Under the pieces are notes generated by a model. The model made no database searches. It saw only the letters and a list, made by a program, of their open reading frames with translations, and was not told the origin of the DNA. This document shows, piece by piece, positions 96 to 56,839 of a stretch of DNA of 64,000 nucleotides; the first letter of the stretch is position 1; each line of letters opens with the position of its first letter. Source of the DNA: Nitrospirota bacterium (lineage in GTDB: Bacteria; Nitrospirota; UBA9217); contig CAVWHO010000020.1 in NCBI GenBank assembly GCA_963754875.1, forward strand, positions 175,374 to 239,373, read 5' to 3'. Position numbers and translations under genes: made by a program.

Positions 96-1303
96 GTGTA
101 GTGTCTCTCAATTAACTGGTGTTATGCCATGACTTGTGATAGAATGCTGTTCATGGCACGACACGCTTTAATTATAGACCTTACGGCGTCAGATCGACAA
201 GAACTGGAGCAATGGGTACAAGCTCATCGCACCCCGCAACAAGTCGCTCAACGATGTCGAATTATTCTAGCAGCAGCGAGTGGCCAACAAGACAAGGCCA
301 TCGCAAAGCGAATTCAAATCAATTATAAAACGGCCGCATTATGGAGGCAGCGGTTCTGTAGCGAAGGTCCGGACTGCCTTTGGGAAGTTGCGGCAGGTCG
401 CGGACGTAAACCGGAGTTAACGACAACCAAAATTAATAAAATAATTAGATGCCACTCTGCAATCAAGGCCTGCTGGCGCGACCCACTGGAGTTGCCGAAC
501 AATGGCTGAAAAGCACGGCGTCAGCAAAGCAACGATCAATAGAATATGGCAGAGCCATAACATTAAACCGCACAGAACTAAGAGCTTCAAGTTGTCCCGC
601 GACCCACGGTTTTTGGAGAAGCTTACCGATGTAGTCGGTCTTTATCTGAATCCTCCAGCAAAAGCATTAGTGCTCTGCGTGGATGAGAAAAGCCAGATTC
701 AAGCGCTGGATCGCACACAACCTGGGTTGCCTTTGAAAAAAGGGCGTTGTGGAACAATGACCCATGATTATAAGCGCAACGGTACCACGACGCTATTTGC
801 GGCGCTCGAATTGGCACAAGGTAAAGTCATTGGTCAGTGTTACGCGCGGCATCGCCATCAGGAGTTTCTCAAGTTCTTGAAGCAACTGGACGCTGAGTTC
901 CCGGTCGAAAAGCAATTGCACCTGGTGATGGATAACTATGGAACCCATAAACATCCCAATGTCCAGAAATGGTTATCACGTCATCCACGCTTTGTGACGC
1001 ACTTCGTTCCGACCAGTTCAAGTTGGTTGAATCTTGTCGAGCGTTGGTTCGGAGAACTGACGGGAAAACGATTACGTCGTGGTGTCTTTGTCAGCGTGGA
1101 CGCGCTCAAGAGCGCGATCGAAGAGTATTTGGCTACTTGGAATAAAGACCCAAAACCGTTTGTATGGACCGCAACCGTCGAATCGATTGTTAAGAAACTT
1201 GGACGCTGCAAGCAGACATTGGAGAAAATTCAGCCAGGCTGCACGTTACCTCGCTCTCGCAAGAAAAAGGCTGATAACACCAGTCGTTTGTGAGACACTA
1301 CAC
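96..1303 (+). mobile_element. IS630-family insertion sequence, degenerate copy 1 (~1.2 kb) flanked by TA
   Basis: Left end GTGTAGTGTCTC at 96 and right end GAGACACTACAC ending at 1303, each preceded or followed by TA. About 90% identical in nucleotide sequence to the two intact copies downstream. The 33-nt leader before the ATG is conserved. Confidence 0.8.
129..1293 (+). pseudogene. IS630-family DDE transposase split by a +1 frameshift (ORFs 129..509 and 502..1293)
   Basis: The two ORFs together align with the intact 387-aa transposase of copies 2 and 3 ([19 protein letters not shown] motifs). Compared with the intact copies there is a one-base insertion near 437 (attaGatgcc versus attaatgcc) that shifts the frame, plus many substitutions. 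Confidence 0.75.
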
Positions 1304-2484: not shown

Positions 2485-3597
2485 TCATATTTGCGGCGGT
2501 CCTTTGCAGCGCGCGGGCTGCATGATCTCGATGGTACGCATTGTTCGTTCGCCGCAGGCAGGGCATTTGGCGACGTCGATGCCGGCGATCCTGAGCAGGG
2601 ATTCCTGCCACGTCTCGGTTTTCTGTTCCCCCTTGTTCTGCTCGGCGCAGGCTAGAAGCTCCCTGCAGCGATCGAGTTTCTTCTTACGGCATCTGTTGCC
2701 CAACAAACCGTAGTGCCTGATCTTCACGAACCTGTCGGGAAGGACGTGAAGCAGGAACCGCCTGATGAACTCATCGGGCTTAAGAGGCATGATTTTGGTT
2801 TTGTTGTTATCGGCGTAGTCGCGCCACCGGAAGGAAACTTCGTCTTTATCGATCTTCACGAGCCGGTGATTGCTGATCGCGATACGGTGAGTGTACCTGC
2901 CGAGATATTCAAGAACACCCTTGGTTCCGTCGAACGGCGGCTTGCAGTAAACGACCCATTTCTTCTTGTACAGATCGGTGATCAAAGCCTTGAATGCCCC
3001 CGGCGACGCAAAATGGCTTACGGCGCCGGGGTAAATGAGTTTATTTTCGGCACGGAGCTTTTCCAGATAAGCAATAAATTTTCCCCGAAAGAGCTTCGAC
3101 ATCACTTTGACCGGGAGGAAGAAGTCATTCTTGCATGACTTCCATTTCCGTCCATCACGGGACAAGCCTCCGCCGGTGACGATGTTGTGGAGGTGCGGAT
3201 GGTCCATGAGATTCTGTCCCCACGTGTGTAGGATCGAGATAAACCCGATGTCAGCGCCAAGATGCTTCCGGTTTTCCGAGAGCTGGGCCAGGGTTTCTGA
3301 GGCGGACTTGAACAGGATTCCGTAGAGAACTTCCTGATTCCGGAGCACCAGAGGATTGAGAAGATCGGGGAGGGTGAAGATAACATGGAAGTACGGGATG
3401 GGAAGCAGATCTTTCTCCCGAGCCTCTATCCACTGCTCTTTTTTGAGGAACTGGCACTTGGGACAATGCCGGTTTCTGCAGGAGTTGTACGAGATCACTT
3501 TCGTTCCGCAGTGCTCGCACTCGTCCACGTGGCCGCCTTGGTCGGCGGTACGGCAGGTTTCAATCGCCCGCATGGCGCGAAGACGATTCAAGGGCAT
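2485..3597 (-). CDS. IS91-family (rolling-circle, HUH Y2) transposase
   Basis: N-terminal zinc-binding CxxC...CPKC motif. LHTWGQNLMDHPHLHNIVTGGGL is the IS91 HxH motif region. The tyrosine region YLGRYTHRIAISNHRL follows. Confidence 0.8.
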   Translation of the reverse strand: MPLNRLRAMRAIETCRTADQGGHVDECEHCGTKVISYNSCRNRHCPKCQFLKKEQWIEAREKDLLPIPYFHVIFTLPDLLNPLVLRNQEVLYGILFKSASETLAQLSENRKHLGADIGFISILHTWGQNLMDHPHLHNIVTGGGLSRDGRKWKSCKNDFFLPVKVMSKLFRGKFIAYLEKLRAENKLIYPGAVSHFASPGAFKALITDLYKKKWVVYCKPPFDGTKGVLEYLGRYTHRIAISNHRLVKIDKDEVSFRWRDYADNNKTKIMPLKPDEFIRRFLLHVLPDRFVKIRHYGLLGNRCRKKKLDRCRELLACAEQNKGEQKTETWQESLLRIAGIDVAKCPACGERTMRTIEIMQPARCKGPPQI

Positions 3598-6368: not shown

Positions 6369-7733
6369 TTATGAGATCCCGAGTTTTTTCCTGAGTGTCA
6401 ACCTGTTGATGCCAAGCAGCCTGGCGGTCTCGGACTGGTTCTCCCGTGTATGAGACAGGAGATAGGCGAACACATGCCGGTCCACTTCGGTATGGACCTT
6501 GTCATAGATGTTTTTCTCCTTGTTGTCGAGCGCTTTTTTTACAAAGGGGACGAGTACGGCTGCAAGGGCGTCTGCATCGCCTGCCGGGGGCCTTGCCGTG
6601 GAATGCGAACCCAGGTCCCTCAGTTCCTGCGTAGTCAGGTAGTCTGTTTTGCAAAGGGCGATTGCCGACCGGAGGGTGTTTTCCAGCTCGCGAATGTTGC
6701 CCGGCCAGTCATAGGTGAGAAGCCGGTCCATGAAGGCCTTGGTCACTCCCTTGATCGGCTTCTGCGCCGTATGGGCATGGCGGTAGAACAGGCACTGGAC
6801 CAGCGGCGCGATGTCCTTCTTGCGTTCGCGAAGCGGCGGCACGTGGATCGATGCGACGCGGAGCCGGTGATAAAGGTCTTCCCGGAACTTTCCTTCGCGC
6901 ACCATGTCGGCAAGGTCGCGGTTCGTTGCCGAGATCACGCGTACGTTCACCTGTACCTCTTTCGTGCTGCCCACAGGATAAAATGTCTGGGTCTGAAGAA
7001 AGCGCAGGAGCTTTCCCTGGAGCTGCAGCGGAAGCTCTCCGATCTCGTCGAAGAACACGGAGCCTCCGTCGGCAGCTTTGAGCATGCCTTCTTTGGAGGC
7101 CACGGCGCCGGTGAATGCTCCGCGTTCATGGCCGAAGAGTTCCGATTCAAGCAAAGTGTCGGGCACGGCAGCTGAATTGATGACAACGAAGGGTTTGCCG
7201 AAGCGAAAAGAAAGCTGCGCAATCGCCTCGGCTACCAGTTCCTTTCCGGTGCCCGTCTCACCGGTGACGAGAACGGGGACCTCGACCTGAGCGATGCGCG
7301 CGATTTTTTCGCACAGGCTCATGACGAGCGTGGACCTGCCCACGATGACACACGTTGCGGCAGGCGCCAGCAGGTCCTTCGATATCGTTACGGTGTGCTC
7401 CATTTCCGTGGTGAGCCCCTGCAGCTCCGCCAGGAGCCGCTCGAACCGCTCCTTCCTGAGCGGCCTCCGCATGATTTCATAGGCGCCCCACGTGGCGGCC
7501 TCCATGACCGGACCGGTCCGTTCCTGGTCCGTGATAGCGATGACGAACGTCCGTTCGCTGTATCCCTTGATCACCTGGGCATCAATCGAATCGAGGTCCA
7601 CAAGAACGAAATATTCATCCCGGCCGGAGATCCCCGACTTACGGCCGGTCGTCAGCTTGTACCCTTTCGGCAGGATGGCGGAAACCTCCTGCTCCAGAGA
7701 CTGGTCTTTCGTCAACAGCAGCACTTTTTTCAT
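6369..7733 (-). CDS. sigma-54-dependent transcriptional regulator (degenerate receiver-like N-domain, AAA+ sigma-54 activator domain, Fis-type HTH)
   Basis: GETGTGKELVAEAIA Walker A, ESELFGHERGAFTGA (GAFTGA sigma-54 contact motif), C-terminal HTH. GGGAGG RBS present. Confidence 0.85.
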   Translation of the reverse strand: MKKVLLLTKDQSLEQEVSAILPKGYKLTTGRKSGISGRDEYFVLVDLDSIDAQVIKGYSERTFVIAITDQERTGPVMEAATWGAYEIMRRPLRKERFERLLAELQGLTTEMEHTVTISKDLLAPAATCVIVGRSTLVMSLCEKIARIAQVEVPVLVTGETGTGKELVAEAIAQLSFRFGKPFVVINSAAVPDTLLESELFGHERGAFTGAVASKEGMLKAADGGSVFFDEIGELPLQLQGKLLRFLQTQTFYPVGSTKEVQVNVRVISATNRDLADMVREGKFREDLYHRLRVASIHVPPLRERKKDIAPLVQCLFYRHAHTAQKPIKGVTKAFMDRLLTYDWPGNIRELENTLRSAIALCKTDYLTTQELRDLGSHSTARPPAGDADALAAVLVPFVKKALDNKEKNIYDKVHTEVDRHVFAYLLSHTRENQSETARLLGINRLTLRKKLGIS

Positions 7734-12781: not shown

Positions 12782-12980
12782 AAGGCCGTACAACCTTGTT
12801 CATCCACTTCAACGAGTTTTTTCCTTATCGAACACCGTTTCCCTCTCGAAGCCGCCATCCGACTGACTGTGCGCGGGTATTCATTGTATATATAAAAAAT
12901 AAACAAATTGTATAATAAATTAACAGATCTGAACGCTCCCCTTTGGTAAACCCTCTGAATTTGCCGTTGTTTTCGCTGGC

Positions 12981-13003
12981 ATGCACGTTGCTATAACGTG
13001 CAT
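12981..13003. promoter_or_regulatory. perfect 9-bp-arm palindrome (atgcacgtt-gctat-aacgtgcat), candidate operator ~115 nt upstream of the sulfite-reductase-like gene
   Basis: Read directly. It lies just downstream of a TGTATAAT-like -10 element at ~12905. Confidence 0.4.
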
Positions 13004-13116
13004 AGCATCAATGCCGCGATGTGCGAAAGCATGAAGTGGGCCCCTTCCTCCCCTTAGGCAGTTCTTGCTTCGTGCCTTCACAACGCTGCGGCATACTTCT
13101 CTGAGAGGTGACAAAA

Positions 13117-14261
13117 TGAGCGAAGTTGCTGCGCAGGTTTCCGTCGACGAACTGAAACGGGTCGGGATCATCGGCCAGAAACAGAAGGATTTTTATCTCA
13201 TTCGACTTCGGACCGTGGGCGGCGGAATGACCGCCGAGGAACTGAACACGGTCTCGGAGGTCTCGCGGAAATACGGGAACGGGCAGGTGCACCTCACGAC
13301 ACGCCAGGCAATCGAGATCCACAACATCCATGTCGAGAATCTTCAGGCCGCCCGTGAGGAAATAGAGGCGTGTGGGATCGTGCTTGGCGTATGCGGGCCG
13401 CGCGGCAGGGGGATCGTGGCCTGCCCCGGAAACGCAACATGCACCTCGGGTCTGATCGAAACCAGGGAACTGGCCGCAGAGTTCGACGAGGCCTATCTGC
13501 GCATGCCTGCTCCGCACAAGTTCAAAATCGGCATTTCCGGTTGCCCGAACAATTGTTCTAAACCTATTGAGAACGATGTCGGCATTATGGGCGGCGTACT
13601 GCCGCGTTGGCACAAGGACACCTGCACTGCCTGCCAGCTCTGCGTAAACATTTGTCCAACCAGGGCGATCGAGCAAAAAGGCGGGGATTTTGTCCTCGAC
13701 AGCGGCAAGTGCCTCCTGTGCGGGCTTTGCATCAGTAACTGCCCGTCGTCGACATGGACTGCAGAGAAGACCGGTTACACGCTCTATCTCGGCGGGACCA
13801 TGGGCAAGAAACCCCGCCTCGGGACCAGGGCAAAAGTATTAATTGAAACAAAGGAAGAGCTTGTAGCTGCGGTCCGCAAGGCGTTCGACTTTTACGTTGC
13901 CCACGGCAGGAAAAAAGAGCGTTTCGGCCACACCCTCGACAGGATCGGAGTGGACCAGGCTTTTGCCCAAATCTTTTCAGACAAGACTGAAAAGCCGGTG
14001 TCAGCACAGGATTCTACGGCAGCGTCACCAATAAAAAGGAACCTCCTCGACCTGAGAGGCGTCTGCTGTCCCATGAATTTCGTGAAGGCAAAACTTGCAA
14101 TGGACAAGATCAGGAACGGCGAAACGATTGAGTTTTACCTTGACGATGGGGAGCCGATCGTAAATGTCACCCGCAGTCTCAAAGATGAGGGACATCAGGT
14201 GCTGAGTGTAGTGCCGCAGGACGCATATTTCAAAGTACTGGTCGAGAAGAAGATCTCCTGA
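13117..14261 (+). CDS. sulfite/nitrite-reductase-family protein (ferredoxin-like half domain, siroheme-type 4Fe-4S site and 2x[4Fe-4S] ferredoxin insert; AsrC/DsrA-like) fused to a C-terminal TusA-like domain
   Basis: CPGNATCTSG...GCPNNC siroheme/FeS motifs. CTACQLCVNICP and CLLCGLCISNCP are ferredoxin motifs. C-terminal LDLRGVCCPMNFVKAKLAMDKIRNGETIEFYLDD is a TusA/SirA-like fold. RBS GAGAGGTG is before the ATG at 13117. Confidence 0.7.
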
Positions 14262-15870: not shown

Positions 15871-17232
15871 TCACTCGCTTTCTAACCCATACTTCTTGAG
15901 CTTTCTCCAGAGGGAGACGCGATCTATGCCCAGTATCTGAGCGGCGAGGGTCTTGTTGCCGCCGACCTCGTTCAGCACCCACTTGATATAGGCTTCTTCC
16001 TGTTCATCGAGCGACGGAATTTTGCCTTCCTTTTTTCGGAACGTTTTGATGCTGAGTTCCCGCAGGTCCTCGGGCAGGTGGCCGGTCTCGATCGCTCCGC
16101 CGTTCGCGAGCGCCACGCCCCGCTCCATGATGTTCTCTAGTTCCCGTACATTGCCGGGAAAGTCGTAGTGCATGAGCAGGGCGATCACTTCTTCCGCGAT
16201 TTCGGTGACCTCTTTCTTCATAAGCACCGCATATTTTTTGAGGAAGTAGTAGGAAAGGAGGGGGATATCGTCCTTGCGTTCGACGAGCGGCGGGATGCGA
16301 AGCGAAACGACGTTCAGCCTGAAGTACAGGTCCTGACGGAATGAACCGCTTTTCATCGAATCGTGAATGTCCCTGTTCGTTGCCGCTACGAACCGTACGT
16401 CTACCTTGAGCGGGTCAATGCCCCCGACGCGCAGCACTTCCTTCTCCTGGATCACGCGCAGCAGTTTTACCTGCATGGACTGCGGCATCTCGGTCACTTC
16501 GTCCATGAACAGGGTGCCGCCCGACGCCATCTCGATCAGTCCCTTTTTCATGGCGCTCGCGCCGGTGAAGGCGCCCTTTTCGTGCCCGAACAGCTCGTTT
16601 GACAACAGCTCCTCGGTGAAGGCCCCGCAGTTGATGGCAAAGAAGGGGCCTTCCATGCGCTTGCTGTTAAGGTGGATGTATCGCGCGAAGAGTTCTTTGC
16701 CGGTTCCACTTTCTCCGGTGATCAGCACATTGCAGTCCGTGGGCGCGATTTGGCGCGCGGTCTCAAGCAGCTTCTGCATCGACGGGTCCTGGGTGATGAT
16801 CTTGACCTTGCCCTGGTAGCTTTCGAGTTGCTCGCGGAGGTGACGGTTCTCGGTCTTGAGCCTCACCTTATGCACGGCCTCCGACACGACCTTTCGCACT
16901 TCCTCCAGTTTAAACGGTTTCGCAATGTAGTAGAACGCCCCATCCTTCATGGTCTCAACGGCAGAGTCGAGCGTTGCATAACCCGTGATCATGACGACTT
17001 CCGTGTCCGGGTAAAGCTCGCGGGTCTTTTTTAGGATCTGCATGCCGTCTACTTTTTCCATACGGAGGTCTGTGAGCACGACGTCGAACTGCCGGTCTTC
17101 GAGAAGTTTAAGGGCGTTTGTTCCGCTCTGCGTGGCCGTAACGTCGTATCCTTCTTTTTTCATCACGTGCTCAAGGTTCCTGAGGGCTATCCGTTCGTCG
17201 TCGATGATGAGCAACTTACCTGAATCGGGCAT
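15871..17232 (-). CDS. sigma-54-dependent two-component response regulator (NtrC family: REC-AAA+-HTH)
   Basis: Receiver domain with DDERIAL...VLTDLRMEKVDG. GESGTGKELFARYIH, GAFTGA, C-terminal Fis HTH. Confidence 0.9.
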   Translation of the reverse strand: MPDSGKLLIIDDERIALRNLEHVMKKEGYDVTATQSGTNALKLLEDRQFDVVLTDLRMEKVDGMQILKKTRELYPDTEVVMITGYATLDSAVETMKDGAFYYIAKPFKLEEVRKVVSEAVHKVRLKTENRHLREQLESYQGKVKIITQDPSMQKLLETARQIAPTDCNVLITGESGTGKELFARYIHLNSKRMEGPFFAINCGAFTEELLSNELFGHEKGAFTGASAMKKGLIEMASGGTLFMDEVTEMPQSMQVKLLRVIQEKEVLRVGGIDPLKVDVRFVAATNRDIHDSMKSGSFRQDLYFRLNVVSLRIPPLVERKDDIPLLSYYFLKKYAVLMKKEVTEIAEEVIALLMHYDFPGNVRELENIMERGVALANGGAIETGHLPEDLRELSIKTFRKKEGKIPSLDEQEEAYIKWVLNEVGGNKTLAAQILGIDRVSLWRKLKKYGLESE

Positions 17233-17349
17233 GAATATGACTCCTTGTCAAATCTTGTGAGGACCAGAGGAACGTCTATCTGGTTCATGATGCAATCTCT
17301 GTACTTCCCCTGCCTGTAACTGAGACATCTTCTGTGATTCGTTTCTTCT

Positions 17350-18874
17350 TTAGTACTTCATCGGCAGCCGGATTAAAAAGCTCGTCCCTTTACCGGCCTC
17401 GCTGTCAACGGCGATACACCCGTCATGTTCCTCGATGATCTCATGGACGATGTACAGGCCGAGGCCCGAACCCTTTCCCACGTCTTTGGTAGTGAAGAAG
17501 GGGTCGAAAATCTTGGGAATGATGTCGACCGGGATGCCGGGACCGGTGTCCCTGATCTCGATGTCGACGGTGTCCTGGTCAAGCGTGCACTTGCCGCCGT
17601 ATTTCAGGTAATTATAAATACCGATCTTTCCGTCTTCAACGTCGTCCAGTGCCCTGCGTTTCTCCGCCTTGATCGTTACCGACCCTTCGGCAGACGTTAT
17701 GGCTTCAATAGCGTTCTTGATCAGGTTCAGGAACGCCTGCTGGATCCGCTGCTTGTCCGCGAAGATCACGATATCGTCGGGAACTGCAACGGTGATTGCG
17801 ATCCTGGTCGGGACCTGGCCCTTGATGAACTGGATCGTTTCCTCAAAGATCTTTTTGAGTACCAGCGACTCTTTCGTGAACTCCCGGTCCCGGGAAAAGT
17901 CGAGCAGGGAGCGGACGATATTTCGCGCCCGGTCTGTTTGATCGTTGATCTGATTGATCAGTTCCTGAACAAAATCAGGGTCTACGGGCCAGGAGACGTC
18001 CGCCTGTTTGCCGCGTGCTTCTTTCACTTCTTCCGCCAGGATCTGGTTCGACGTCGAGATGTTCGAAAGCGGATTGTTCAGCTCGTGGGCCACGCCGGAG
18101 AGGAGCGTGCCCAGGGACGCGAGCTTCTCGGACTGGATGAGGTGCCGCTCGTGCAGCTCCAACTCCTTCAGCATCTTATTGAAGGCCCGTGTCAGCGAGG
18201 CGATTTCCCGGTCTTTCGAGTCAATGGCAATGCGTTCAAACTTGCCTTCCGCGATGATGCCCATGCTCTCTTCAAGAGATTTCAACGGCTTCACCACCAT
18301 CCGGGACAGGATCTGGCCGATGACGATCACGGCGACGGACAGGATCAGGATCGAGATGACCAGGATGAGCTGAGAGTTCTTCAGCAGCAGCTGCAGGCTC
18401 CTCCGTTCGGTTTTAGCGATATCTTCCGCGGCCGTGATGATGTCCTTGCCCGTAGCACGGATATTGCCGGCGAGCATGAGCTTCCGTGCACTGCTATGCC
18501 TGCCTGCGAGTGCGTACTCTTCCATGAGCTCCCGATAGGTTTTCAAGCCGACCTGAAGCGACGATATCTGTTGCGACGAAGCAAAAGCCCTGAACCCGCG
18601 GATGTTGCGGTCGATGAGGTCCTGTGCCCGGGCAACGTACTGCACGTTTTCGTCATAGTCCGATTGCTGCTCGTAGAGAAAGAAATTCTTCTCGAATCGC
18701 CTGATCTTCGAGCGTCGTATCGAAAAACTCGGAGATCGCCTCGCCGACGATGATCTTCCGTTCCACGAACCGGAGTTCGAGATAGGTGAAGATCGTCAGA
18801 CCGATGATCAGGGCGACGATCGCATAGTAGCCCAGGGTGATCTTCTGTCGTATGCTGGGTTGATAATTGAACAT
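17350..18874 (-). CDS. sensor histidine kinase (TM-periplasmic domain-TM-HAMP-HisKA-HATPase) whose reading frame is interrupted near 18646..18655
   Basis: HELNNPLSNIS H-box. DTGPGIP...GSGLGLYIV G-boxes. The 73-aa ORF 18653..18874 carries TM1 and the start of the sensor domain, and the 431-aa ORF carries the rest. The two are offset by a frame change, and the downstream ORF begins with GTG at 18643. Confidence 0.75.
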
Positions 18875-18896
18875 GGTTTTCGCAAAGAGAGCTTTA

Positions 18897-18957
18897 CGTC
18901 TCAGGTCTCAAGTTTCTGGTTTTAAACTTGAGACTTGAAACTGGAGACTTGAGACAT
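18897..18957. repeat. cluster of GTCTCAAGTTT / AAACTTGAGAC motifs, including an 11-bp-arm palindrome
   Basis: gtctcaggtctcaagtttctggttttaaacttgagacttgaaactggagacttgagac. It shares a 15-mer with 21981..22030. Confidence 0.7.
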
Positions 18958-20955
18958 CTAAATCAGCACCGCATGTACGGCGTCCATCACGTTGTCGACC
19001 AGGCGAAGCTCGATGTCCTTTTTTACTTCTTCATCCAGTTCATCCACGTCGTCGCGGTTGCGGGCGGGCACGATCATGGTCTTGACCTTTGCTCGCTTGG
19101 CTGCCAGGACCTTTTCCCTGATGCCGCCCACCGGAAGTACCCGTCCCGTGAGAGTGATCTCGCCGGTCACGGCGATGTCCTTTCGCGCCGGGCGCCCGGT
19201 GAGCAGCGAGGCAAGGGCAAGGAGGATGGTGATGCCGGCCGACGGGCCGTCTTTCTGGATCGCGCCGGAAGGCACATGGACGTGGATGTCTTTCTGCTCA
19301 AAAAAATTGTCAGGGATGCCGAAGGCCTCGGCATTGCTCCTGATATAGGATAGGGCCGCCTGCGCCGACTCACGCATGACGTCGCCGAGGGATCCGGTGA
19401 TGATCAACTCTTTCGTGCCGTTCATTTTTGCTGCTTCCACGAAAATGATGTCTCCGCCTGTTTCGGTCCGCACGAGTCCTGTTGCGACGCCGATGCGGTC
19501 TTGCTCCTCGACCACGTCGAAGTGGTACTTCCGTTTGCCGAGATACGTCTCGACCGCGGCCGGCGTAATCACGACGGTTTCCGGCAGACCATGCCGGTCG
19601 ACAGAGGATTTGGCGATCTTTCTGCAGATGGTAGCGATCGTGCGCTCGAGGTTCCGGATGCCTGCTTCCCGGGTGTACTCCCGGATGATTTTTGCTACGG
19701 CGTCACCGGTAAAAACGACGTCGTCCGGAGACAGACCTTTCTCGCGGATCTGTTTCGGACAGAGGAACCGTGAAGCGATAAGCGCTTTTTCCTCCTCTGT
19801 GTAACCCGAGAACTCGATTACTTCCATGCGGTCCCGAAGCGGGGCCGGGACGGTTTCAAGCACGTTCGCGGTCAGGATAAACATGACGCCTGAAAGGTCG
19901 AAGGGAGCGTCCAGATAGTGGTCCACGAACGCGCGGTTCTGCTCCGGATCGAGCACTTCGAGCAGCGCCGATGCAGGGTCGCCCTTGAAGTCACGTCCGA
20001 TCTTGTCAAGTTCGTCGAGCATGATCACCGGGTTGGCCGATTCGACGCGGCGGATCTCCTCTATCACCCTGCCGGGCTTCGCCCCGACGTACGTGCGGCG
20101 GTGCCCCCGGATGTCTGCTTCGTCCTTGAGGCCGCCGAGGGCGATGCGGGTGAACTTTCTGCCGAGGGCCCGCGCAATGGAACGGCCGAGGGACGTCTTG
20201 CCTGTACCCGGAGGACCGGCGAAACAGAGGACCGAGCCCTTCGTGTTTGCCCGCACTGTCTTTGTATCCAATGCCTTCTTGATGGTGTCACGGACTTCAT
20301 CGAGCTTAAAGGGCTTCGCAATATAGTGGAAAGCCCCTTTTTGCATTGCCTCGATGGCGGAGGGGACCGTGGCAAAGCCGGTTATCATGACGACCCGGGC
20401 GTCCGGGTACCGGACCTTGATCCGGTCCAGGAGGTCCATGCCGTCGATTTTCCCCATGCGAAGGTCGGTCAGCACTACATCGAACTCGTCCATGTCGAGC
20501 TCTTTGAGCGCATCTTCGCCGCCTGCTACGGCAACCACGTCATACTCTTCCTTCGTAAGCACGTGAGCAAGGTTCTTTCGCGCGATCTCTTCATCATCGA
20601 CGATCAGGATTCGTGCCTTTTTGCTCATCCTGAGCACCTTCACGGCCAGGTGCTCGAGGACCCGCTCCTTGATCGTGCTGAGGCCGTAGTGGTTTTCGTT
20701 CAGGATACGCTCGGCACGGGAGAGGTCGAGATTGTCTTCGGTCTTTTTGTTCCACGGCAGACAGGCGAGGTAGTCGATGTAGGTCACACCGATGGTGTAT
20801 TCGGCAGACGATGGGCTGATCTTTGCCAGGATCGAGAGCTCCTGATCAGCGATCTTCTCCACCGGCCCGGGCATGCCGGCGCGAGATATTTTCTGGCGCA
20901 GCTCGGCAATGATAAGTTCGTGCTCGTTGTCGTCCGATTTTTTAAAAAATTTCAT
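18958..20955 (-). CDS. Lon-family ATP-dependent protease lacking the N-terminal substrate domain and carrying an inserted response-regulator receiver domain (linker-REC-AAA+-protease)
   Basis: YIDYLACLPWNKKTEDNLDLSRAERILNENHYGLSTIKERVLEHLAV is the Lon pre-AAA helical linker. ARILIVDDEEIARKNL...VLTDLRMGKIDGMDLL...AKPFKL is a CheY-like REC. GPPGTGKTSLGRSIA...GHRRTYVGAKPGR is Lon AAA+. DGPSAGITIL...GGIREKVLAAKRA supplies the Ser-Lys dyad. The ORF track begins at 20988; the ATG at 20955 has GAAGG upstream. Confidence 0.8.
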   Translation of the reverse strand: MKFFKKSDDNEHELIIAELRQKISRAGMPGPVEKIADQELSILAKISPSSAEYTIGVTYIDYLACLPWNKKTEDNLDLSRAERILNENHYGLSTIKERVLEHLAVKVLRMSKKARILIVDDEEIARKNLAHVLTKEEYDVVAVAGGEDALKELDMDEFDVVLTDLRMGKIDGMDLLDRIKVRYPDARVVMITGFATVPSAIEAMQKGAFHYIAKPFKLDEVRDTIKKALDTKTVRANTKGSVLCFAGPPGTGKTSLGRSIARALGRKFTRIALGGLKDEADIRGHRRTYVGAKPGRVIEEIRRVESANPVIMLDELDKIGRDFKGDPASALLEVLDPEQNRAFVDHYLDAPFDLSGVMFILTANVLETVPAPLRDRMEVIEFSGYTEEEKALIASRFLCPKQIREKGLSPDDVVFTGDAVAKIIREYTREAGIRNLERTIATICRKIAKSSVDRHGLPETVVITPAAVETYLGKRKYHFDVVEEQDRIGVATGLVRTETGGDIIFVEAAKMNGTKELIITGSLGDVMRESAQAALSYIRSNAEAFGIPDNFFEQKDIHVHVPSGAIQKDGPSAGITILLALASLLTGRPARKDIAVTGEITLTGRVLPVGGIREKVLAAKRAKVKTMIVPARNRDDVDELDEEVKKDIELRLVDNVMDAVHAVLI

Positions 20956-21229
20956 GTGCCTTCGTAAAAAACAATAAAGTGGTTGCATTTTACAACGTTC
21001 AGATTATCAATGCAACACTCAAAAAATCTTTTTTATTCAACGCGTAGCATGACTTTAGAGATAAAGCATTGCATTCTAAAACAATGGTGGACGAAAGTAC
21101 GATTTTTTATATTTATGTATTGTATCATTTTTTCAATGCATTATGCCGAGAAAAGGTTTTGGCACGAAGGTTGTAATTAGGAATAGTGAAAGAGCACAAG
21201 AAAACATCACGGGAAAGGAGGAACAGAGT

Positions 21230-21406
21230 ATGAAAACCTTAATGGAGAAATTAGAAACCACCATGGCGGCAGCTGCATTTGCAGAGGAAGGCGAGTTCGA
21301 GACCGCCCTCCAGATCCTGAGGGAAGATCAGCCGAGAAAAACCGACAGGCCGTCTGTTCATGATTATAAGAGACCATCTGCCAGAAAAGAACTGCGAGCC
21401 GACTGA
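21230..21406 (+). CDS. small hypothetical protein with an N-terminal TMAAAAFAEEGEFETA motif
   Basis: AAAGGAGG RBS 8 nt upstream. Shares its motif with the next gene. Confidence 0.5.
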   Translation: MKTLMEKLETTMAAAAFAEEGEFETALQILREDQPRKTDRPSVHDYKRPSARKELRAD

Positions 21407-21464
21407 TATTGCTGGCAACGCCTCAAGCGACTGTGAAAAAGCTGCATTCGTCAATAGAGGGACC

Positions 21465-21971
21465 ATGGAAACGACAAAGATCAAAAAGATGATGAAAATG
21501 GTGGAGCAGGCCCTGACAGCAGCATCATTTGCCGAAGAAGGGGAAGCGGAGACCGCCAATGCATTACTGTGGGAATCGCGGCGGGTGCTGCTGGGGCTCA
21601 AGGCAGGGCAGATAGATCCCAAAACACTGAAATACGCTCTCAACTCAGCCAGGCGGATCAATGCGCATCTCGACATTCTCTACGTTACCGGAGCGGTCAG
21701 CCAGAGTAAGGGTACGATTGATCCCGTACTTGAGCCATTTGTGTCGGAACTAACTGCAGCAGGGATTCCTTTTCGCCTGATCCCCCGGTCCGGTTGTCTT
21801 AAACAGCAGATAATCGACTACTCGAACAGTGAGAAGGAAATCCTGTTCGCCGTCATTGAGTCCCCGGCTACATTGGACGATGACTGCAATAAGCGCGACA
21901 AGGTGCTTGCTGAACTGTGGCGCCAACTGAAGTGTCCGCTCGTCGTGGTTATGGACGGGGCTGGGGCGTAA
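21465..21971 (+). CDS. protein with the same N-terminal motif (LTAASFAEEGEAETA) followed by a Usp-like alpha/beta domain
   Basis: AGAGGGA RBS. The C-terminal region LDILYVTG...ILFAVIESP...VVVMDG resembles the universal stress protein / adenine-nucleotide alpha-hydrolase fold. Confidence 0.55.
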   Translation: METTKIKKMMKMVEQALTAASFAEEGEAETANALLWESRRVLLGLKAGQIDPKTLKYALNSARRINAHLDILYVTGAVSQSKGTIDPVLEPFVSELTAAGIPFRLIPRSGCLKQQIIDYSNSEKEILFAVIESPATLDDDCNKRDKVLAELWRQLKCPLVVVMDGAGA

Positions 21972-21980
21972 TTAAGATAA

Positions 21981-22030
21981 GTCTCAAGTTTCATGTCTCA
22001 GGTCTCAAGAAACTCAAGTTTCAAGTCAAA
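21981..22030. repeat. second cluster of GTCTCAAGTTT-type motifs
   Basis: gtctcaagtttcatgtctcaggtctcaagaaactcaagtttcaagtc. Lies directly after the stop of the Usp-like gene. Confidence 0.7.
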
Positions 22031-22076
22031 CCAGAAAACTCAATACAATATTATTTCAATTCAAGGAGGATTTATC

Positions 22077-22328
22077 ATGGCACACAGCACCACGAAGAAA
22101 AAGCCGGTCGCTGCGATGATCGTTATGGGCATCATATCCCTGGCGCTCTATGCGGCGCTCCTGCTCAAACAGGATATGGTAAACAGTATTTTTGCCAAGG
22201 GCGGGCTGTACGCGCTGCTGCCGATCATCACGGCATTCATTTTTTCGTTTTTCCACGGCTCGTTTACCGGGCATTTCTGGACCGTACTCGGCGTAGAAGC
22301 GTCAAAGAAAAAAATGGAGGTAAAATAA
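22077..22328 (+). CDS. small 2-TM membrane protein immediately upstream of the TauE/SafE permease
   Basis: AGGAGGA RBS. Its stop lies 1 nt before the next ATG, suggesting coupling. Confidence 0.55.
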   Translation: MAHSTTKKKPVAAMIVMGIISLALYAALLLKQDMVNSIFAKGGLYALLPIITAFIFSFFHGSFTGHFWTVLGVEASKKKMEVK

Positions 22329-22329
22329 C

Positions 22330-23412
22330 ATGGACGATATCGTGACGAATTTCATCAATCTTGACGCTATTACCATCCTCTATCTGTTCGGTGTCGGATT
22401 TGTCGGCGGTCTGGTCAGCGGATTTATCGGTTCGGGCGGCGCTTTTGTTCTCACGCCGGGCATGATGAGCCTGGGCGTCCCTGGTCTCGTTGCAGTGGCG
22501 AGCAATATGTGCCACAAGTTTCCCAAAGCGCTCGTGGGTTCAATCAAACGTGCAAAATACGGGCAGGTTGACGTAAAGCTCGGCATTGTACTGGGTATTT
22601 CGGCTGAAGCCGGCGTGCTCTACGGCGCCCAGATCCAGGAAAACATCAAAAAAGCCTTCGGTGATGCCGGTTCCAATCTGTACGTGAGCGTGGCTTTTGT
22701 TGTGATTTTGGCAACGGTCGGCGGCTTCGTTCTTTATGACGCGTGGAAAACCTACAAGGCCGGAAACTCCCATGCCGTGGAAACGACCGGGAAACTGGCC
22801 AAGTGGGTGCAGTCCATCAATATCCCCGGCACCATGGTCTATTTCAAGAGCATCAATGCACGCGTATCTATCCTCTTCACGATCCCCCTCGGGTTTGCCA
22901 CCGGCATGCTGGCAGCCACGATCGCGGTCGGCGGCTTCATCGGCGTCCCCTCTATGATCTACGTCCTCGGTGCACCCAGCCTCATGGCCTCGGCCACGGA
23001 GCTGGTGATCGCTTTCGTCATGGGCCTCGGCGGTTCGCTCAAGTATGCCATGCACGGCATGGTCGACATCCGCCTTGCCATGATCATCCTCGCGGGATCG
23101 CTCTTCGGCATTCAGCTCGGAGCAATCGGCACAACCTATGTGAAGCCCTTCATGATCAAGGTCGTCATGGGCCTGATCATGGTAATCGTATTGTTCAGCC
23201 GGGGCCTCATGGTCCCTGTGTATCTTGCCCAGCTCGGTCTCATTGATAAATTGGGCGAGGGAACGGTGTCGTTGCTCAAGACCACGAGCTTTGCGATAAT
23301 GATCTTTGCACTGATGCTCGGTGCCTTCATCGTCCTTCGTGCCATGTGGCAGGGACGCCAGGCCGAGAGATTACAGCATGCGACTGGAGCCCTGGAACGT
23401 GGGGAAGTATAG
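22330..23412 (+). CDS. TauE/SafE (TSUP) family anion (sulfite/sulfonate) exporter-type permease
   Basis: GFIGSGGAFVLTPGMM, the duplicated 4-TM repeats and an overall 8-10 TM topology. Confidence 0.75.
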   Translation: MDDIVTNFINLDAITILYLFGVGFVGGLVSGFIGSGGAFVLTPGMMSLGVPGLVAVASNMCHKFPKALVGSIKRAKYGQVDVKLGIVLGISAEAGVLYGAQIQENIKKAFGDAGSNLYVSVAFVVILATVGGFVLYDAWKTYKAGNSHAVETTGKLAKWVQSINIPGTMVYFKSINARVSILFTIPLGFATGMLAATIAVGGFIGVPSMIYVLGAPSLMASATELVIAFVMGLGGSLKYAMHGMVDIRLAMIILAGSLFGIQLGAIGTTYVKPFMIKVVMGLIMVIVLFSRGLMVPVYLAQLGLIDKLGEGTVSLLKTTSFAIMIFALMLGAFIVLRAMWQGRQAERLQHATGALERGEV

Positions 23413-56158: not shown

Positions 56159-56167
56159 GAGGAGCAT

Positions 56168-56521: not shown

Positions 56522-56532
56522 AGGAGGCTGCT

Positions 56533-56814: not shown

Positions 56815-56839
56815 ATCTTGTTGTACAGGGGAGGTTATT

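What the first reader, a model, noticed from the sequence alone, without database searches (positions are those of the whole stretch)
13117..14261. AsrC/DsrA-like sulfite-reductase-family protein fused to a TusA-like sulfur-carrier domain
One polypeptide combines the nitrite/sulfite-reductase ferredoxin-like half domain, the siroheme-coupled 4Fe-4S Cys cluster (CPGNATCTSG, GCPNNC), a two-cluster ferredoxin insert and a C-terminal ~75-aa TusA/SirA-like domain (GVCCPMNF... rather than the canonical CPxP). It is stand-alone, with no asrAB or dsrB partner. It is preceded by a perfect 9-bp-arm palindrome and a DUF3592 membrane protein. Fusion of a sulfite-reductase-like catalytic unit to a persulfide carrier hints at direct hand-off of a sulfur intermediate. 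It may be functionally linked to the DsrEFH/SQR island 40 kb away.
Basis: partly seen in the sequence, partly recalled or inferred. Interest (0 to 1): 0.6.

Follow-up and report, generated by a model that had tools for sequence, protein, structure and literature searches.

The report
Sulfite reductase fused to TusA carrier
This is a real, conserved gene of uncultured Nitrospirota in which a small biosynthetic-type sulfite reductase is joined by a flexible linker to a TusA sulfur-carrier domain; the fusion makes permanent a partnership that other anaerobes encode as two adjacent genes in their sulfate-assimilation operons.

Summary
Window 13116-14261 (+; the start is one base earlier than reported) is one 381-aa ORF. 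It carries a siroheme sulfite-reductase module with a two-cluster ferredoxin insert, a variable 20-aa linker and a TusA domain (motif GVCCPMNF).

The fusion is not an artefact. More than 120 sequence clusters from independent assemblies share it.

The interpretation needs correcting. The catalytic part is neither AsrC nor DsrA/B. [quoted passage not shown]

The context is assimilatory. In Nitrospirota relatives cysK usually follows directly. In Bacillota, Deltaproteobacteria, Chlorobiales and Methanosarcinaceae the reductase and TusA are separate, overlapping genes next to cysH, cysC, cysDN and sat. The same TusA subtype (C-P-x-N-[FY]) also ends about 780-aa NirA/Sir-type reductases.

I found no evidence of a link to the DsrEFH/SQR genes 42 kb away.

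New regulatory parts emerged: a dedicated sigma-54 activator, an AT-rich upstream site, the window's only consensus sigma-54 promoter, and a covarying 5'-UTR hairpin absent from Rfam.

What TusA does chemically remains inferred. Verdict: new variant of a known kind, moderate interest.

The parts
6369..7733 (-). Dedicated sigma-54 enhancer-binding activator (454 aa): N-terminal pseudo-receiver-like domain, AAA+ sigma-54 interaction domain and HTH_8
   Evidence: Pfam Sigma54_activat E 6e-66 and HTH_8. Its N-terminal 128 aa has orthologues (46-85% identity; L023 38%) divergently upstream of the reductase-TusA gene in 20 loci. The orthologue lies within 150-520 nt in most loci and 3.4-5.9 kb away in L001, L006, L010 and the window.
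12885..12925 (+). AT-rich upstream activating sequence (TGTATATATAAAAAATAAACAAATTGTATAATAAATTAACA; family consensus TGTATA-N7-TATACA-N3-4-TGTATA...AAxCA), the presumed binding site of the activator
   Evidence: This is the most conserved non-coding block in the alignment of 17 upstream regions. The pattern search finds it only here in the window. Binding itself is inferred.
12977..12992 (+). Sigma-54 (-24/-12) promoter TGGCATGCACGTTGCT
   Evidence: It is the only match to TGGCAY-N5-TTGCW in the 64 kb window, against 0.15 expected by chance. A near-consensus match (TGG[CT][AT][CT]-N5-[TC]TGC[AT]) lies 55-213 nt upstream of the start codon in all 20 fused-gene loci tested, the window included. 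It is absent from the split-gene loci L024-L026.
12981..13003 (.).
   Evidence: the repeat finder pair I2, 100% complementary. It is only partly kept in L001 and lost in more distant loci.
13019..13085 (+). Conserved 5'-UTR hairpin: 15 base pairs and an apical loop containing CUCCCCUU. It is a candidate cis-regulatory RNA.
   Evidence: RNAalifold finds 13 of 15 pairs with compensatory changes. 89.7% of cells are paired, against 37-52% with slid partners, and 0 of 500 shuffles reach the observed values. The covariance model scores 65 bits here. It finds five further copies not used to build it (L011, L020, L034, L014, L008), each directly upstream of the same gene. Nothing else in 714 kb matched except one weak hit at E 0.03. 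There is no Rfam match.
13103..13110 (+). Shine-Dalgarno sequence GAGAGGTG
   Evidence: Read directly from the sequence. GAGGTG is conserved in the alignment of upstream regions.
13116..14261 (+). Coding sequence of the reductase-TusA fusion protein (381 aa plus stop)
13173..13370 (+). NIR_SIR ferredoxin-like half domain (aa 20-85), containing Arg30 and Arg63
   Evidence: Pfam E 1.6e-19. Arg30 aligns with Fsr Arg355 and Arg63 with Fsr Arg388, the assimilatory hallmark.
13395..13988 (+). NIR_SIR siroheme/[4Fe-4S] domain (aa 94-291). It holds Cys103/109/143/147 (CX5C...CX3C) and Arg98, Lys135 and Lys137. The extra invariant Cys93 lies immediately N-terminal of it.
   Evidence: Pfam E 1e-30. Alignment to Fsr 7NP8 maps Arg423, Lys460 and Lys462. 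Invariant columns are listed.
13605..13763 (+). Ferredoxin insert (aa 164-216) with two CX2CX2CX3CP motifs, predicted to bind two [4Fe-4S] clusters
   Evidence: Two Fer4 matches. All eight cysteines are invariant.
13977..14039 (+). Variable flexible linker (aa 288-308)
   Evidence: Mean identity to the query is 21%, against 62-84% in the domains. AlphaFold pLDDT is below 50 for residues 290-307.
14040..14249 (+). TusA domain (aa 309-378). The conserved cysteine Cys318 is encoded at 14067-14069, within GVCCPMNF.
   Evidence: Pfam TusA 67.2 bits. Cys318, Pro319, Asn321 and Phe322 are invariant or nearly so. Mean identity is 79%. Foldseek matches the YeeD part of the YeeE-YeeD structure 8K1R (rmsd 1.3 A over 72 columns).

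Best explanation
The gene encodes a biosynthetic (assimilatory) siroheme sulfite reductase of the Group IIId Dsr-like-protein / Fsr-C type, permanently tethered to its TusA partner.

Proposed working:
1. A dedicated sigma-54 activator bound at the AT-rich upstream site switches on the -24/-12 promoter. The transcript carries a structured leader.
2. The protein probably dimerises through its reductase domain, as Fsr does.
3. Low-potential electrons from an unidentified donor enter through the two [4Fe-4S] clusters of the ferredoxin insert. They pass to the siroheme-coupled cluster.
4. Sulfite, held by Arg30, Arg98, Lys135 and Lys137, is reduced there.
5. The TusA domain swings on a roughly 20-residue flexible linker. 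Its Cys318 takes up the reduced sulfur at the mouth of the active-site channel as a protein-bound (persulfide-type) species.
6. TusA passes that sulfur to biosynthetic acceptors. These are cysteine synthase CysK in most Nitrospirota relatives, ThiS-type thiocarboxylate carriers with MetY/CysM in other lineages, and possibly NifU/NifS.

Shown here: the domain make-up, the catalytic residues, conservation of the fusion, the split-gene ancestors, the assimilatory gene contexts, and the promoter, upstream site and leader.

Inferred: dimerisation, the electron donor, the direction and chemical form of sulfur on TusA, and the acceptor.
For: Reductase type:
- The best solved relatives are Fsr 7NP8/7NPA, by sequence (166 and 159 bits, E 1e-47 and 1e-45) and by fold (Foldseek E about 1e-22).
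- All four sulfite-binding residues and the aSir-hallmark arginine are conserved, and the cluster motif is CX5C...CX3C.
- A Group IIId Dsr-LP works as a sulfite reductase in vivo and lets Methanococcus maripaludis use sulfite as sole sulfur source (bioRxiv 10.1101/2024.03.05.583561).

Assimilatory context:
- The downstream neighbour in relatives is cysK (TIGR01139, 464 and 453 bits against a cut-off of 351). It follows within about 1.5 kb in 13 distinct Nitrospirota loci.
- cysH follows directly in L021, and metY-metX follow cysK in L016 and L019.
- In L024-L027, L029-L031, L041 and L043 the reductase (about 287 aa) and TusA (about 76-84 aa) are separate genes, overlapping or 4 nt apart.
- All of these except L043 also carry cysC, cysH, cysD/cysNC, sat or an ABC transporter.

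A dedicated TusA subtype:
- The signature G-V-x-C-P-x-N-[FY] is shared by the fused domain and by the C-terminal TusA of about 780-aa two-repeat NirA/Sir-type reductases. These make up 35 of the 150 best 50%-identity representatives.
- The stand-alone partner in L030 has CPMN followed by Met.
- One such long protein (L040) sits in cysH-cysD-cysNC-metY-ThiS-ThiF-JAB-[Sir-TusA]-PALP.

Precedent:
- Iyer, Burroughs and Aravind 2006 (PMC1779556) found that sulfate-assimilation neighbourhoods with ThiS, JAB and a rhodanese-less E1 always contain SirA (= TusA). They proposed a rhodanese-like role for it. They also found ThiS fused to the C-terminus of sulfite reductase in some actinobacteria.
- Rhodanese is fused to NirA/Sir in Halobacteria (PMC11237513).
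- So acceptors of reduced sulfur are recurrently fused to assimilatory sulfite reductases.

Tether:
- The linker is 21% identical and has pLDDT below 50. TusA is 79% identical, as conserved as the catalytic core.

Regulation.
Against: - In the window itself no cys gene flanks the ORF. A GNAT gene follows, where the 85%-identical locus L001 has cysK-nifU-nifS.
- Fully reduced sulfide cannot form a persulfide on a thiol without an oxidant, so the product hand-off needs either release at the S(0) level or further chemistry.
- The Fsr active site is described as buried, and the aSir-type arginine argues for complete six-electron reduction to free sulfide. CysK uses free sulfide, so TusA would then be dispensable for it.
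- AlphaFold gave no confident docking of TusA on the reductase (pTM 0.63).
- No experiment on any reductase-TusA pair was found in the searchable literature.
Confidence: 0.55

Rival explanations
1. TusA works on the substrate side. Cys318 would carry an oxidised sulfur group, either thiosulfate or an S-sulfonate taken from a thiosulfate importer or from the CysH thiosulfonate intermediate. It would present this group to the siroheme, so that free, toxic sulfite never accumulates. This would be a modern version of the old 'carrier-bound sulfite' assimilation pathway.
For: - The TusA model superposes best on YeeD of the YeeE-YeeD thiosulfate-uptake complex 8K1R.
- The best NCBIfam hit of the domain is YedF.
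- TusA/DsrE homologues that bind thiosulfate are documented (Liu et al. 2014, cited in PMC10504309).
- cysH lies directly after TusA in L029-L031, L041 and L021.
- The ABC-transporter ATPase of the same operons in L024 and L026 carries a TusA-like C-terminal domain.
Against: - Fsr, the closest characterised relative, does not reduce thiosulfate, and its substrate pocket fits free sulfite.
- All four sulfite-binding residues are unchanged.
- The other domains found fused at the same position of sulfite reductases (ThiS, rhodanese) are acceptors of reduced sulfur.
- No YeeE-type gene was seen beside the fused genes.
Confidence: 0.15
2. The protein is mainly a sulfite (or nitrite) detoxification enzyme, as shown for Fsr and proposed for Dsr-LP in methanogens. 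It would protect an anaerobe that handles sulfite as an intermediate, with TusA playing an accessory or regulatory part.
For: - Fsr and M. maripaludis Dsr-LP confer sulfite resistance.
- Fsr also reduces nitrite with a low Km.
- The window's own copy has no cys neighbour.
- A TauE/SafE-family anion exporter lies 8 kb downstream.
Against: - The conserved neighbours are biosynthetic: cysK, cysH, metY/metX, sat and cysC.
- The nitrite-specialised Group II Fsr has two of the arginines replaced, whereas both are kept here.
- Detoxification does not explain a strongly conserved sulfur-carrier domain.
- This rival is not exclusive of the best explanation.
Confidence: 0.15
3. One reading: the fusion belongs to dissimilatory or oxidative sulfur metabolism. 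It would work with the DsrEFH/SQR genes 42 kb away, for example by oxidising TusA-bound sulfane sulfur to sulfite as reverse DsrAB does with DsrC.
For: - TusA feeds DsrEFH and DsrC in sulfur oxidisers (established knowledge, cited).
- The window does encode DsrE, DsrF and DsrH-like proteins and an SQR-like flavoprotein at 55802-58030.
Against: - No dsr, apr, qmo or hdr gene is a conserved neighbour in any of about 45 loci.
- The protein has the aSir-type arginine and the CX5C motif, not DsrB features.
- Fsr shows no sulfide oxidation even at 10 mM.
- The distance of 42 kb, with IS elements in between, gives no operon logic.
- The split-gene relatives occur in methanogen-related archaea and in fermenters or syntrophs, inside cys operons.
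Confidence: 0.05
4. The fusion is an assembly or annotation artefact joining two adjacent genes.
For: In other phyla the two parts are separate genes. One Nitrospirota locus (L032) shows the TusA part in another frame.
Against: - The reading frame is continuous in the window.
- The same architecture is found in 120 of the 120 best clusters, from four independent data sources.
- TusA is in frame in 24 Nitrospirota loci.
- A linker of conserved length but free sequence joins the parts.
Confidence: 0.01

Closest known systems
Fsr, the F420-dependent sulfite reductase of Methanococcales (C-terminal half, PDB 7NP8/7NPA), and free-standing Group IIId Dsr-like proteins (Susanti & Mukhopadhyay 2012; Day et al. 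2024)
   Same: - Same fold.
- Same CX5C...CX3C siroheme-cluster motif.
- Two extra [4Fe-4S] motifs in a ferredoxin insert.
- Four conserved sulfite-binding Arg/Lys residues and the assimilatory-type arginine (Fsr Arg388 = Arg63).
- About 31-38% identity over 265 residues.
   Different: - It has no N-terminal F420H2-oxidase half, so the electron donor is unknown.
- It carries a C-terminal TusA domain that Fsr and the described methanogen Dsr-LPs lack.
- It has an invariant Cys93 where Fsr has Glu418.
- It is bacterial and sigma-54 regulated.
The SirA(TusA)-containing sulfate-assimilation / ThiS-JAB-E1 gene neighbourhoods of Iyer, Burroughs & Aravind 2006, and the protein-thiocarboxylate route to methionine in Wolinella succinogenes (Krishnamoorthy & Begley 2011; own knowledge, paper not held)
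   Same: A sulfite reductase and a TusA/SirA protein encoded together with sat, cysC, cysH, an ABC transporter and metY/cysM. The same logic applies: a cysteine-bearing carrier stands between the reductase and the biosynthetic acceptors.
   Different: Here the carrier is covalently fused to a Dsr-LP-type (not NirA/Sir-type) reductase. The Nitrospirota loci show cysK rather than ThiS/ThiF/JAB beside it. No role of SirA in those pathways has been tested, as far as I could find.
The ~780-aa two-repeat NirA/Sir-type reductases with a C-terminal TusA, annotated only as 'sulfurtransferase TusA family protein' or 'sulfite reductase (ferredoxin)'
   Same: The same TusA subtype (G-V-x-C-P-x-N-[FY]) at the same C-terminal position of an assimilatory siroheme reductase.
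   Different: The reductase scaffold differs: a monomeric pseudo-dimer of two NIR_SIR repeats without a ferredoxin insert. This makes it an independent fusion event.
DsrAB with DsrC (dissimilatory sulfite reductase and its cysteine-bearing sulfur acceptor)
   Same: A siroheme reductase with a ferredoxin insert that works with a small cysteine-bearing protein. It is a possible analogy for capture of a partly reduced sulfur.
   Different: - It fails the DsrA and DsrB models (93 and 99 bits against cut-offs of 393 and 342).
- There is no A/B paralogue pair and no DsrB-type CXnCCX3C motif.
- It has arginine instead of the DsrA threonine.
- TusA is unrelated in fold to DsrC and lacks its C-terminal arm.
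- The context is assimilatory.
AsrC of the anaerobic sulfite reductase AsrABC
   Same: It is the best-scoring NCBIfam model (150.6 bits), with the same Group III architecture and two extra clusters.
   Different: The score is far below the cut-off of 324.1 and there are no asrA/asrB neighbours. JGI's automatic name 'anaerobic sulfite reductase subunit C' is therefore misleading.

Membership tests
Siroheme sulfite/nitrite reductase superfamily (NIR_SIR) | NIR_SIR_ferr and NIR_SIR domains above the Pfam gathering scores | tested here: met
   69.8 bits (cut-off 24) and 106.7 bits (cut-off 27).
Siroheme sulfite/nitrite reductase superfamily (NIR_SIR) | Four cysteines CX5C...CX3C that ligate the siroheme-coupled [4Fe-4S] cluster | tested here: met
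   C103-x5-C109 and C143-x3-C147, invariant in 55 sequences.
Siroheme sulfite/nitrite reductase superfamily (NIR_SIR) | Bound siroheme and sulfite-reducing activity | not testable with these tools
   Needs purified protein, a UV-vis spectrum and an activity assay.
Group IIId Dsr-like protein / Fsr-C clade | Peripheral plus additional [4Fe-4S] motifs in a ferredoxin insert | tested here: met
   C170-x2-C173-x2-C176-x3-C180-P and C199-x2-C202-x2-C205-x3-C209-P. The definition is taken from PMC3448663.
Group IIId Dsr-like protein / Fsr-C clade | All four sulfite-binding Arg/Lys residues present (subgroup d) | tested here: met
   R30, R98, K135 and K137 align with Fsr R355, R423, K460 and K462.
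Group IIId Dsr-like protein / Fsr-C clade | Closest solved relative is Fsr-C rather than DsrA/B or aSiR | tested here: met
   Fsr 166 bits against DsrA 60 and CysI 31.5. Foldseek ranks Fsr first. No formal phylogeny was built.
Fsr (F420-dependent sulfite reductase) | N-terminal F420H2-oxidase (FrhB-like) half | tested here: not met
   The protein starts 19 residues before the NIR_SIR_ferr domain, and no such domain is found.
AsrC (anaerobic sulfite reductase subunit C) | Score above the TIGR02912 cut-off | tested here: not met
   150.6 bits against a cut-off of 324.1.
AsrC (anaerobic sulfite reductase subunit C) | Encoded with asrA and asrB | tested here: not met
   The neighbours are DUF3592, acetolactate synthase and a GNAT gene. 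No asrAB was seen in related loci.
DsrA / DsrB (dissimilatory sulfite reductase) | Scores above the TIGR02064 / TIGR02066 cut-offs, and a paralogous partner subunit | tested here: not met
   92.9 bits against 392.85 and 99.5 against 341.5. There is no second NIR_SIR gene in the window.
DsrA / DsrB (dissimilatory sulfite reductase) | DsrA active-site threonine, or the DsrB CXnCCX3C motif | tested here: not met
   Arg63 occupies the position of Fsr Arg388 (the aSir hallmark). The motif is CX5C...CX3C.
TusA / SirA sulfur-carrier family (PF01206) | Domain model above the gathering score | tested here: met
   67.2 bits against 28.6, covering 68 of 70 model positions. The fold matches YeeD in 8K1R.
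TusA / SirA sulfur-carrier family (PF01206) | Conserved cysteine followed by proline at the start of helix 1 | tested here: met
   C318-P319 is invariant in 55 sequences. Helix 320-330 is present in the model.
TusA / SirA sulfur-carrier family (PF01206) | Canonical CPxP motif (second proline) | tested here: not met
   The motif is CPMN. Asn321 is near-invariant, and the variant C-P-x-N-[FY] defines the reductase-associated subtype.
TusA / SirA sulfur-carrier family (PF01206) | Carries persulfide or thiosulfonate sulfur on the cysteine | not testable with these tools
   Needs mass spectrometry of the protein during turnover.
Assimilatory sulfate-reduction / cysteine-methionine biosynthesis gene cluster | Co-located with cysK, cysH, cysC, cysDN, sat or metY | tested here: inconclusive
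   Met in most relatives: cysK follows in 13 Nitrospirota loci, and cysH, cysC and sat lie in the split-gene loci. Not met in the window itself or in L004, where a GNAT gene follows.
Sigma-54-dependent gene with dedicated enhancer-binding protein | A -24/-12 consensus promoter conserved in orthologues, plus an adjacent activator gene | tested here: met
   The transcription start and the dependence on RpoN were not tested.

The most novel reading that the evidence does not exclude
The enzyme does not release free sulfide. The siroheme stops at, or is intercepted at, the zero-valent stage after four electrons. The sulfur is captured by a cysteine relay, possibly the invariant Cys93 next to the substrate-binding loop and then Cys318 of the tethered TusA.

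That would give a protein persulfide made directly from sulfite. It would be a DsrAB/DsrC-like mechanism operating in biosynthesis: a sulfide-free route from sulfate to cysteine, thiocarboxylates and Fe-S clusters. The recurrent fusion of TusA, ThiS and rhodanese to assimilatory sulfite reductases would be its genomic footprint.
Probability: 0.15. Interest if true: 0.75.

Novelty: new variant of a known kind. Interest (0 to 1): 0.45.

Why it matters
How reduced sulfur leaves an assimilatory sulfite reductase and reaches its users is usually assumed to be diffusion of free sulfide. A reductase covalently tied to a TusA carrier gives a one-polypeptide system for testing whether sulfur is handed on in protein-bound form. 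The system has natural split-gene versions in several phyla and a parallel fusion on a different reductase scaffold.

It also assigns a physiological context, cysteine and methionine biosynthesis, to bacterial members of the Group III Dsr-like proteins. This group was still called biochemically uncharacterised in 2018-2024 papers.

It shows that two automatic names hide the real function: 'anaerobic sulfite reductase subunit C' and 'sulfurtransferase TusA family protein'.

The dedicated sigma-54 activator and the covarying leader RNA give handles for finding the signal that controls sulfur assimilation in uncultured Nitrospirota.

Tried and rejected
- Translating from the reported start 13117 gave stop codons. 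The start was corrected to 13116.
- An exact look-up of the window's own protein on contigs found nothing.
I used six single-protein look-ups instead.
- I tested whether the extra active-site-proximal Cys93 tracks the presence of a TusA partner.
  - All fused or TusA-adjacent proteins have it, and P0125 and P0130 (Cys) have an adjacent TusA.
  - P0133 (Cys) has none.
  - Of the non-Cys proteins, P0127 and P0139 lack a TusA neighbour, and the P0153 contig is too short to tell.
  - This is a trend only and is reported as inconclusive.
- AlphaFold gave no confident placement of TusA on the reductase (pTM 0.63). The tool returns no coordinates, so the distance from Cys318 to the active site could not be measured.
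- Rfam searches, at gathering scores over the whole window and at E up to 10 over 12850-13150, found nothing for the leader.
- Literature searches for a described reductase-TusA fusion found none. The Krishnamoorthy & Begley 2011 paper was not held.
- Ideas considered and rejected: the palindrome as an independent operator, DUF3592 as a functional partner, AsrC or DsrA identity, and a gene-fusion artefact.
Full report
**1. The observation**

The ORF runs from ATG 13116 to the stop at 14261 on the + strand (381 aa). The reported start, 13117, is one base off, and translating from it gives 16 stop codons. A GAGAGGTG ribosome-binding site lies 6-13 nt upstream of the ATG. The N-termini of homologues (MSE...) agree with this start and not with the longer TTG ORF at 13065.

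Pfam finds four elements:
- NIR_SIR_ferr, residues 20-85, E 1.6e-19.
- NIR_SIR, residues 94-291, E 1e-30.
- Two 4Fe-4S ferredoxin motifs, residues 164-212.
- TusA, residues 311-378, E 1.2e-18, 67 bits against a gathering score of 28.6.

The first refutation criterion, a C-terminal domain failing TusA models, is therefore not met.

**2. The fusion is real**

- A search of 5.8 billion proteins gave 1090 hits. All 120 listed (66-100% identity, about 380 aa, from JGI, ENA, NCBI and Logan assemblies) contain the same three modules. Where named, they come from Nitrospirota MAGs.
- In 24 Nitrospirota loci fetched from species-representative genomes and metagenomes, the TusA part is in the same frame as the reductase part.
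- Domain-wise conservation is that of a two-domain protein with a free linker. The catalytic core is 78-84% identical, TusA 79%, and the linker (residues 288-308) only 21%.
- AlphaFold (55-sequence alignment) gives pLDDT below 50 for residues 290-307 and an overall pTM of 0.63. TusA is therefore tethered rather than confidently docked.

**3. What kind of reductase it is**

NCBIfam scores are far below the cut-offs for AsrC (150.6 against 324.1), DsrB (99.5 against 341.5) and DsrA (92.9 against 392.85). There is no asrAB or second NIR_SIR gene nearby or anywhere in the window.

The closest solved structures are the F420-dependent sulfite reductases Fsr 7NP8/7NPA. This holds by sequence (166 and 159 bits; DsrA scores 60 and E. 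coli CysI 31.5) and by fold.

In the HMMER alignment, the key residues map as follows:

| This protein | Fsr | Role (Jespersen et al.) |
|---|---|---|
| Arg30 | Arg355 | binds sulfite |
| Arg98 | Arg423 | binds sulfite |
| Lys135 | Lys460 | binds sulfite |
| Lys137 | Lys462 | binds sulfite |
| Arg63 | Arg388 | hallmark of assimilatory enzymes; DsrA has Thr here |

The coupled-cluster motif is CX5C...CX3C, as in aSiR and Fsr, not the DsrB type. Both CX2CX2CX3CP motifs of the ferredoxin insert are complete and invariant.

In the scheme of Susanti and Mukhopadhyay (PMC3448663) this is a Group IIId Dsr-like protein. Papers from 2018 to 2024 call Group III biochemically uncharacterised. However, a Group IIId member of Methanococcus maripaludis confers sulfite resistance and allows growth on sulfite as sole sulfur source. 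Being 'stand-alone' is normal for this group, since Fsr's reductase domains homodimerise.

**4. Genomic context**

I fetched 36 loci from species-representative genomes and further loci from metagenomes. I then clustered and mapped their genes.

In Nitrospirota the fused gene has two conserved neighbours.
- **A divergent sigma-54 activator upstream.** Its N-terminal 128 residues are orthologous across 20 loci.
- **Cysteine synthase A downstream.** The neighbour scores 464 and 453 bits on TIGR01139 against a cut-off of 351. It follows within about 1.5 kb in 13 distinct loci, often only 10-15 nt after the stop codon.

Variants occur. cysH follows directly in L021. metY-metX follow cysK in L016 and L019. 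nifU-nifS follow in L001, L005, L006 and L009, and nifS in L015.

Relatives with 42-61% identity come from MAGs labelled Pseudomonadota and Deltaproteobacteria, from Pelotomaculum propionicicum, from a Chlorobiales MAG and from Methanosarcinaceae MAGs. In these the reductase (about 287 aa) and a 75-84-aa TusA are separate genes that overlap by about 11 nt or lie 4 nt apart. With one exception (L043), they sit among APS kinase, PAPS/APS reductase, CysD/CysNC, ATP sulfurylase, an ABC transporter, MetY and ThiF.

The Nitrospirota gene is thus a 'Rosetta-stone' fusion of a pre-existing, probably translationally coupled, pair from assimilatory sulfate-reduction operons.

The window's own copy is an exception. 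Like L004, it lacks cysK-nifUS, and a GNAT gene follows. A periplasmic binding protein, a HAMP-PAS protein, an acetolactate synthase and DUF3592 separate it from the activator.

**5. A dedicated TusA subtype and a second fusion class**

An exhaustive HMMER scan of 1.84 billion cluster representatives showed that most relatives are unfused proteins of about 290 aa.

35 of the 150 best representatives are instead proteins of about 660-900 aa (mostly about 780). The four scanned with Pfam have two NIR_SIR repeats (NirA/Sir-type) and a C-terminal TusA. Their TusA shares the signature G-V-x-C-P-x-N-[FY] with the fused domain here. The stand-alone partner in L030 has CPMN followed by Met. Only the second cysteine of the window's 'CC' pair is conserved across these groups.

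One such gene (L040) lies in cysH-cysD-cysNC-DUF2061-metY-ThiS-ThiF-JAB-[Sir-TusA]-PALP.

This matches an observation of Iyer, Burroughs and Aravind (2006, PMC1779556). Sulfate-assimilation neighbourhoods with ThiS/JAB and a rhodanese-less E1 'always contain a SirA' protein, which they predicted to play a rhodanese-like role. They also found ThiS fused to the C-terminus of sulfite reductase in some actinobacteria. Halobacterial NirA/Sir fused to rhodanese has been reported too (PMC11237513).

I found no paper describing the Dsr-LP-TusA fusion or testing any reductase-TusA pair.

**6. Regulation**

- **Promoter.** The only TGGCAY-N5-TTGCW match in the window is at 12977-12992, 139 nt before the ATG, against 0.15 expected by chance. 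A near-consensus -24/-12 match is present upstream of the gene in all 20 fused-gene loci tested and absent from split-gene loci.
- **Palindrome.** It is not conserved as a palindrome.
- **Upstream site.** About 55-90 nt upstream of the promoter lies the best-conserved non-coding block, an AT-rich TGTATA/TATACA repeat at 12885-12925. It is presumably the activator's binding site.
- **Leader hairpin.** The 5'-UTR contains a 15-bp hairpin at 13019-13085 with a C-rich loop (CUCCCCUU).
  - 13 of 15 pairs show compensatory changes.
  - 89.7% of cells pair, against 37-52% for slid controls, and 0 of 500 shuffles reach the observed values.
  - A covariance model built from 13 copies found five further copies, each directly upstream of the same gene.
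  - Nothing convincing turned up elsewhere in 714 kb.
  - Rfam has no match.
  - The loop is complementary to the ribosome-binding site, so translational control is possible, but this is untested.

**7. Mechanism**

The best-supported reading is an assimilatory sulfite reductase whose tethered TusA acts as a sulfur relay towards CysK, thiocarboxylate carriers or Fe-S assembly.

The reductase identity and the assimilatory context are well supported. The role of TusA is inferred from three things:
- the gene-pair and fusion pattern;
- the parallel ThiS and rhodanese fusions;
- its strong conservation.

There are chemical difficulties. Sulfide cannot become a persulfide without an oxidant. The Fsr active site is buried and performs a full six-electron reduction.

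This leaves room for a substrate-side role, with TusA carrying thiosulfate or an S-sulfonate. It also leaves room for a more novel possibility: the sulfur is intercepted at the zero-valent stage, perhaps through the invariant Cys93 that lies five residues before substrate-binding Arg98 (Fsr has Glu there). My test of a Cys93-TusA association gave only a weak trend.

**8. The DsrEFH/SQR island**

The genes exist: DsrE-like at 55802-56152, DsrF-like at 56168-56521, DsrH-like at 56533-56814 and an SQR-like flavoprotein at 56840-58030. No conserved linkage, operon logic or shared regulation connects them with the reductase-TusA gene. The proposed link is unsupported.

**9. Verdict**

The feature is a new variant of a known kind: a Group IIId Dsr-like sulfite reductase fused to its TusA partner, with a Nitrospirota-specific sigma-54 control region and leader RNA. 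Interest is moderate. It offers a compact experimental system for the open question of how sulfur leaves assimilatory sulfite reductases.

Noticed in passing
window 13019-13085 (+); also L001 7904-7970, L003 7907-7968, L005 585-651, L011 9807-9869, L020 4244-4304, L034 4298-4359 and others: A conserved 63-position hairpin RNA with a C-rich apical loop (CUCCCCUU) lies in the 5'-UTR of the reductase-TusA mRNA. It shows strong covariation, is specific to this gene in Nitrospirota and is absent from Rfam. It may be a new cis-regulatory RNA. The loop is complementary to the ribosome-binding site.
   Followed up: yes
window 55802-56152 (+), in-frame TGA at 56030-56032: The DsrE-like gene is interrupted by a TGA (context VYL-TGA-GGCLNF), roughly where I recall the DsrE active-site cysteine to lie (not tested). 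Reading through it extends the Pfam DsrE match from 76 to 112 of 116 positions (32 to 53.7 bits). Two stable hairpins begin at the TGA and continue downstream (-21.9 kcal/mol, z -3.1). It could be a selenocysteine-containing DsrE, or else a pseudogene.
   Followed up: partly
P0163-P0269 (35 proteins); L040 8001-10346: A large, unnamed class of proteins of about 660-900 aa (mostly about 780) ends in the same C-P-x-N-[FY] TusA subtype; the four scanned have two NIR_SIR repeats (NirA/Sir-type). In L040 the gene sits in a cysH-cysD-cysNC-metY-ThiS-ThiF-JAB operon. This is a second, independent reductase-TusA fusion.
   Followed up: partly
L026 15125-16177 (+), and the equivalent gene in L024: The ATPase subunit of the ABC transporter in the split-gene sulfate-assimilation operons carries a C-terminal TusA-like domain (Pfam TusA, 33.7 bits) without the Cys-Pro motif. 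I expected a TOBE-type regulatory domain at this position.
   Followed up: no
window residue Cys93 of the ORF (codon 13392-13394): An invariant extra cysteine (GVCGPRGRG) lies five residues before the substrate-binding Arg98, where Fsr has Glu418. It is present in all TusA-fused or TusA-adjacent relatives and in about half of the unfused ones. Its association with a TusA partner is suggestive but not strict.
   Followed up: partly
window 129-1293, 28411-29574, 53857-55020 (and fragment 58181-58798); 2485-3597: Three copies share the N-terminus MICDRMLFMARHAL...; the copy scanned with Pfam (53857-55020) has DDE_3 and HTH domains typical of an IS630-like transposase. One copy is split into two ORFs. 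There is also an HTH fragment and an IS91-type Y2 transposase. One IS copy lies immediately upstream of the DsrEFH-like genes.
   Followed up: no
P0123, P0135, P0194, P0203: Other fusions of the same Dsr-LP module occur: with a JAB domain (P0123), with a MetY fragment (P0135, possibly a gene-calling merger) and with pyridine-nucleotide-disulfide oxidoreductase, with or without rhodanese domains (P0194, P0203). The last would supply candidate built-in electron donors or sulfur carriers.
   Followed up: no
window 15871-23412; L002 9241-16753: A block is syntenic between the window and L002. It comprises an NtrC-type response regulator, a HAMP histidine kinase, a Lon protease with an N-terminal receiver domain, small ORFs and a TauE/SafE-family anion exporter (22330-23412). 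Whether the exporter relates to sulfite is unknown.
   Followed up: no
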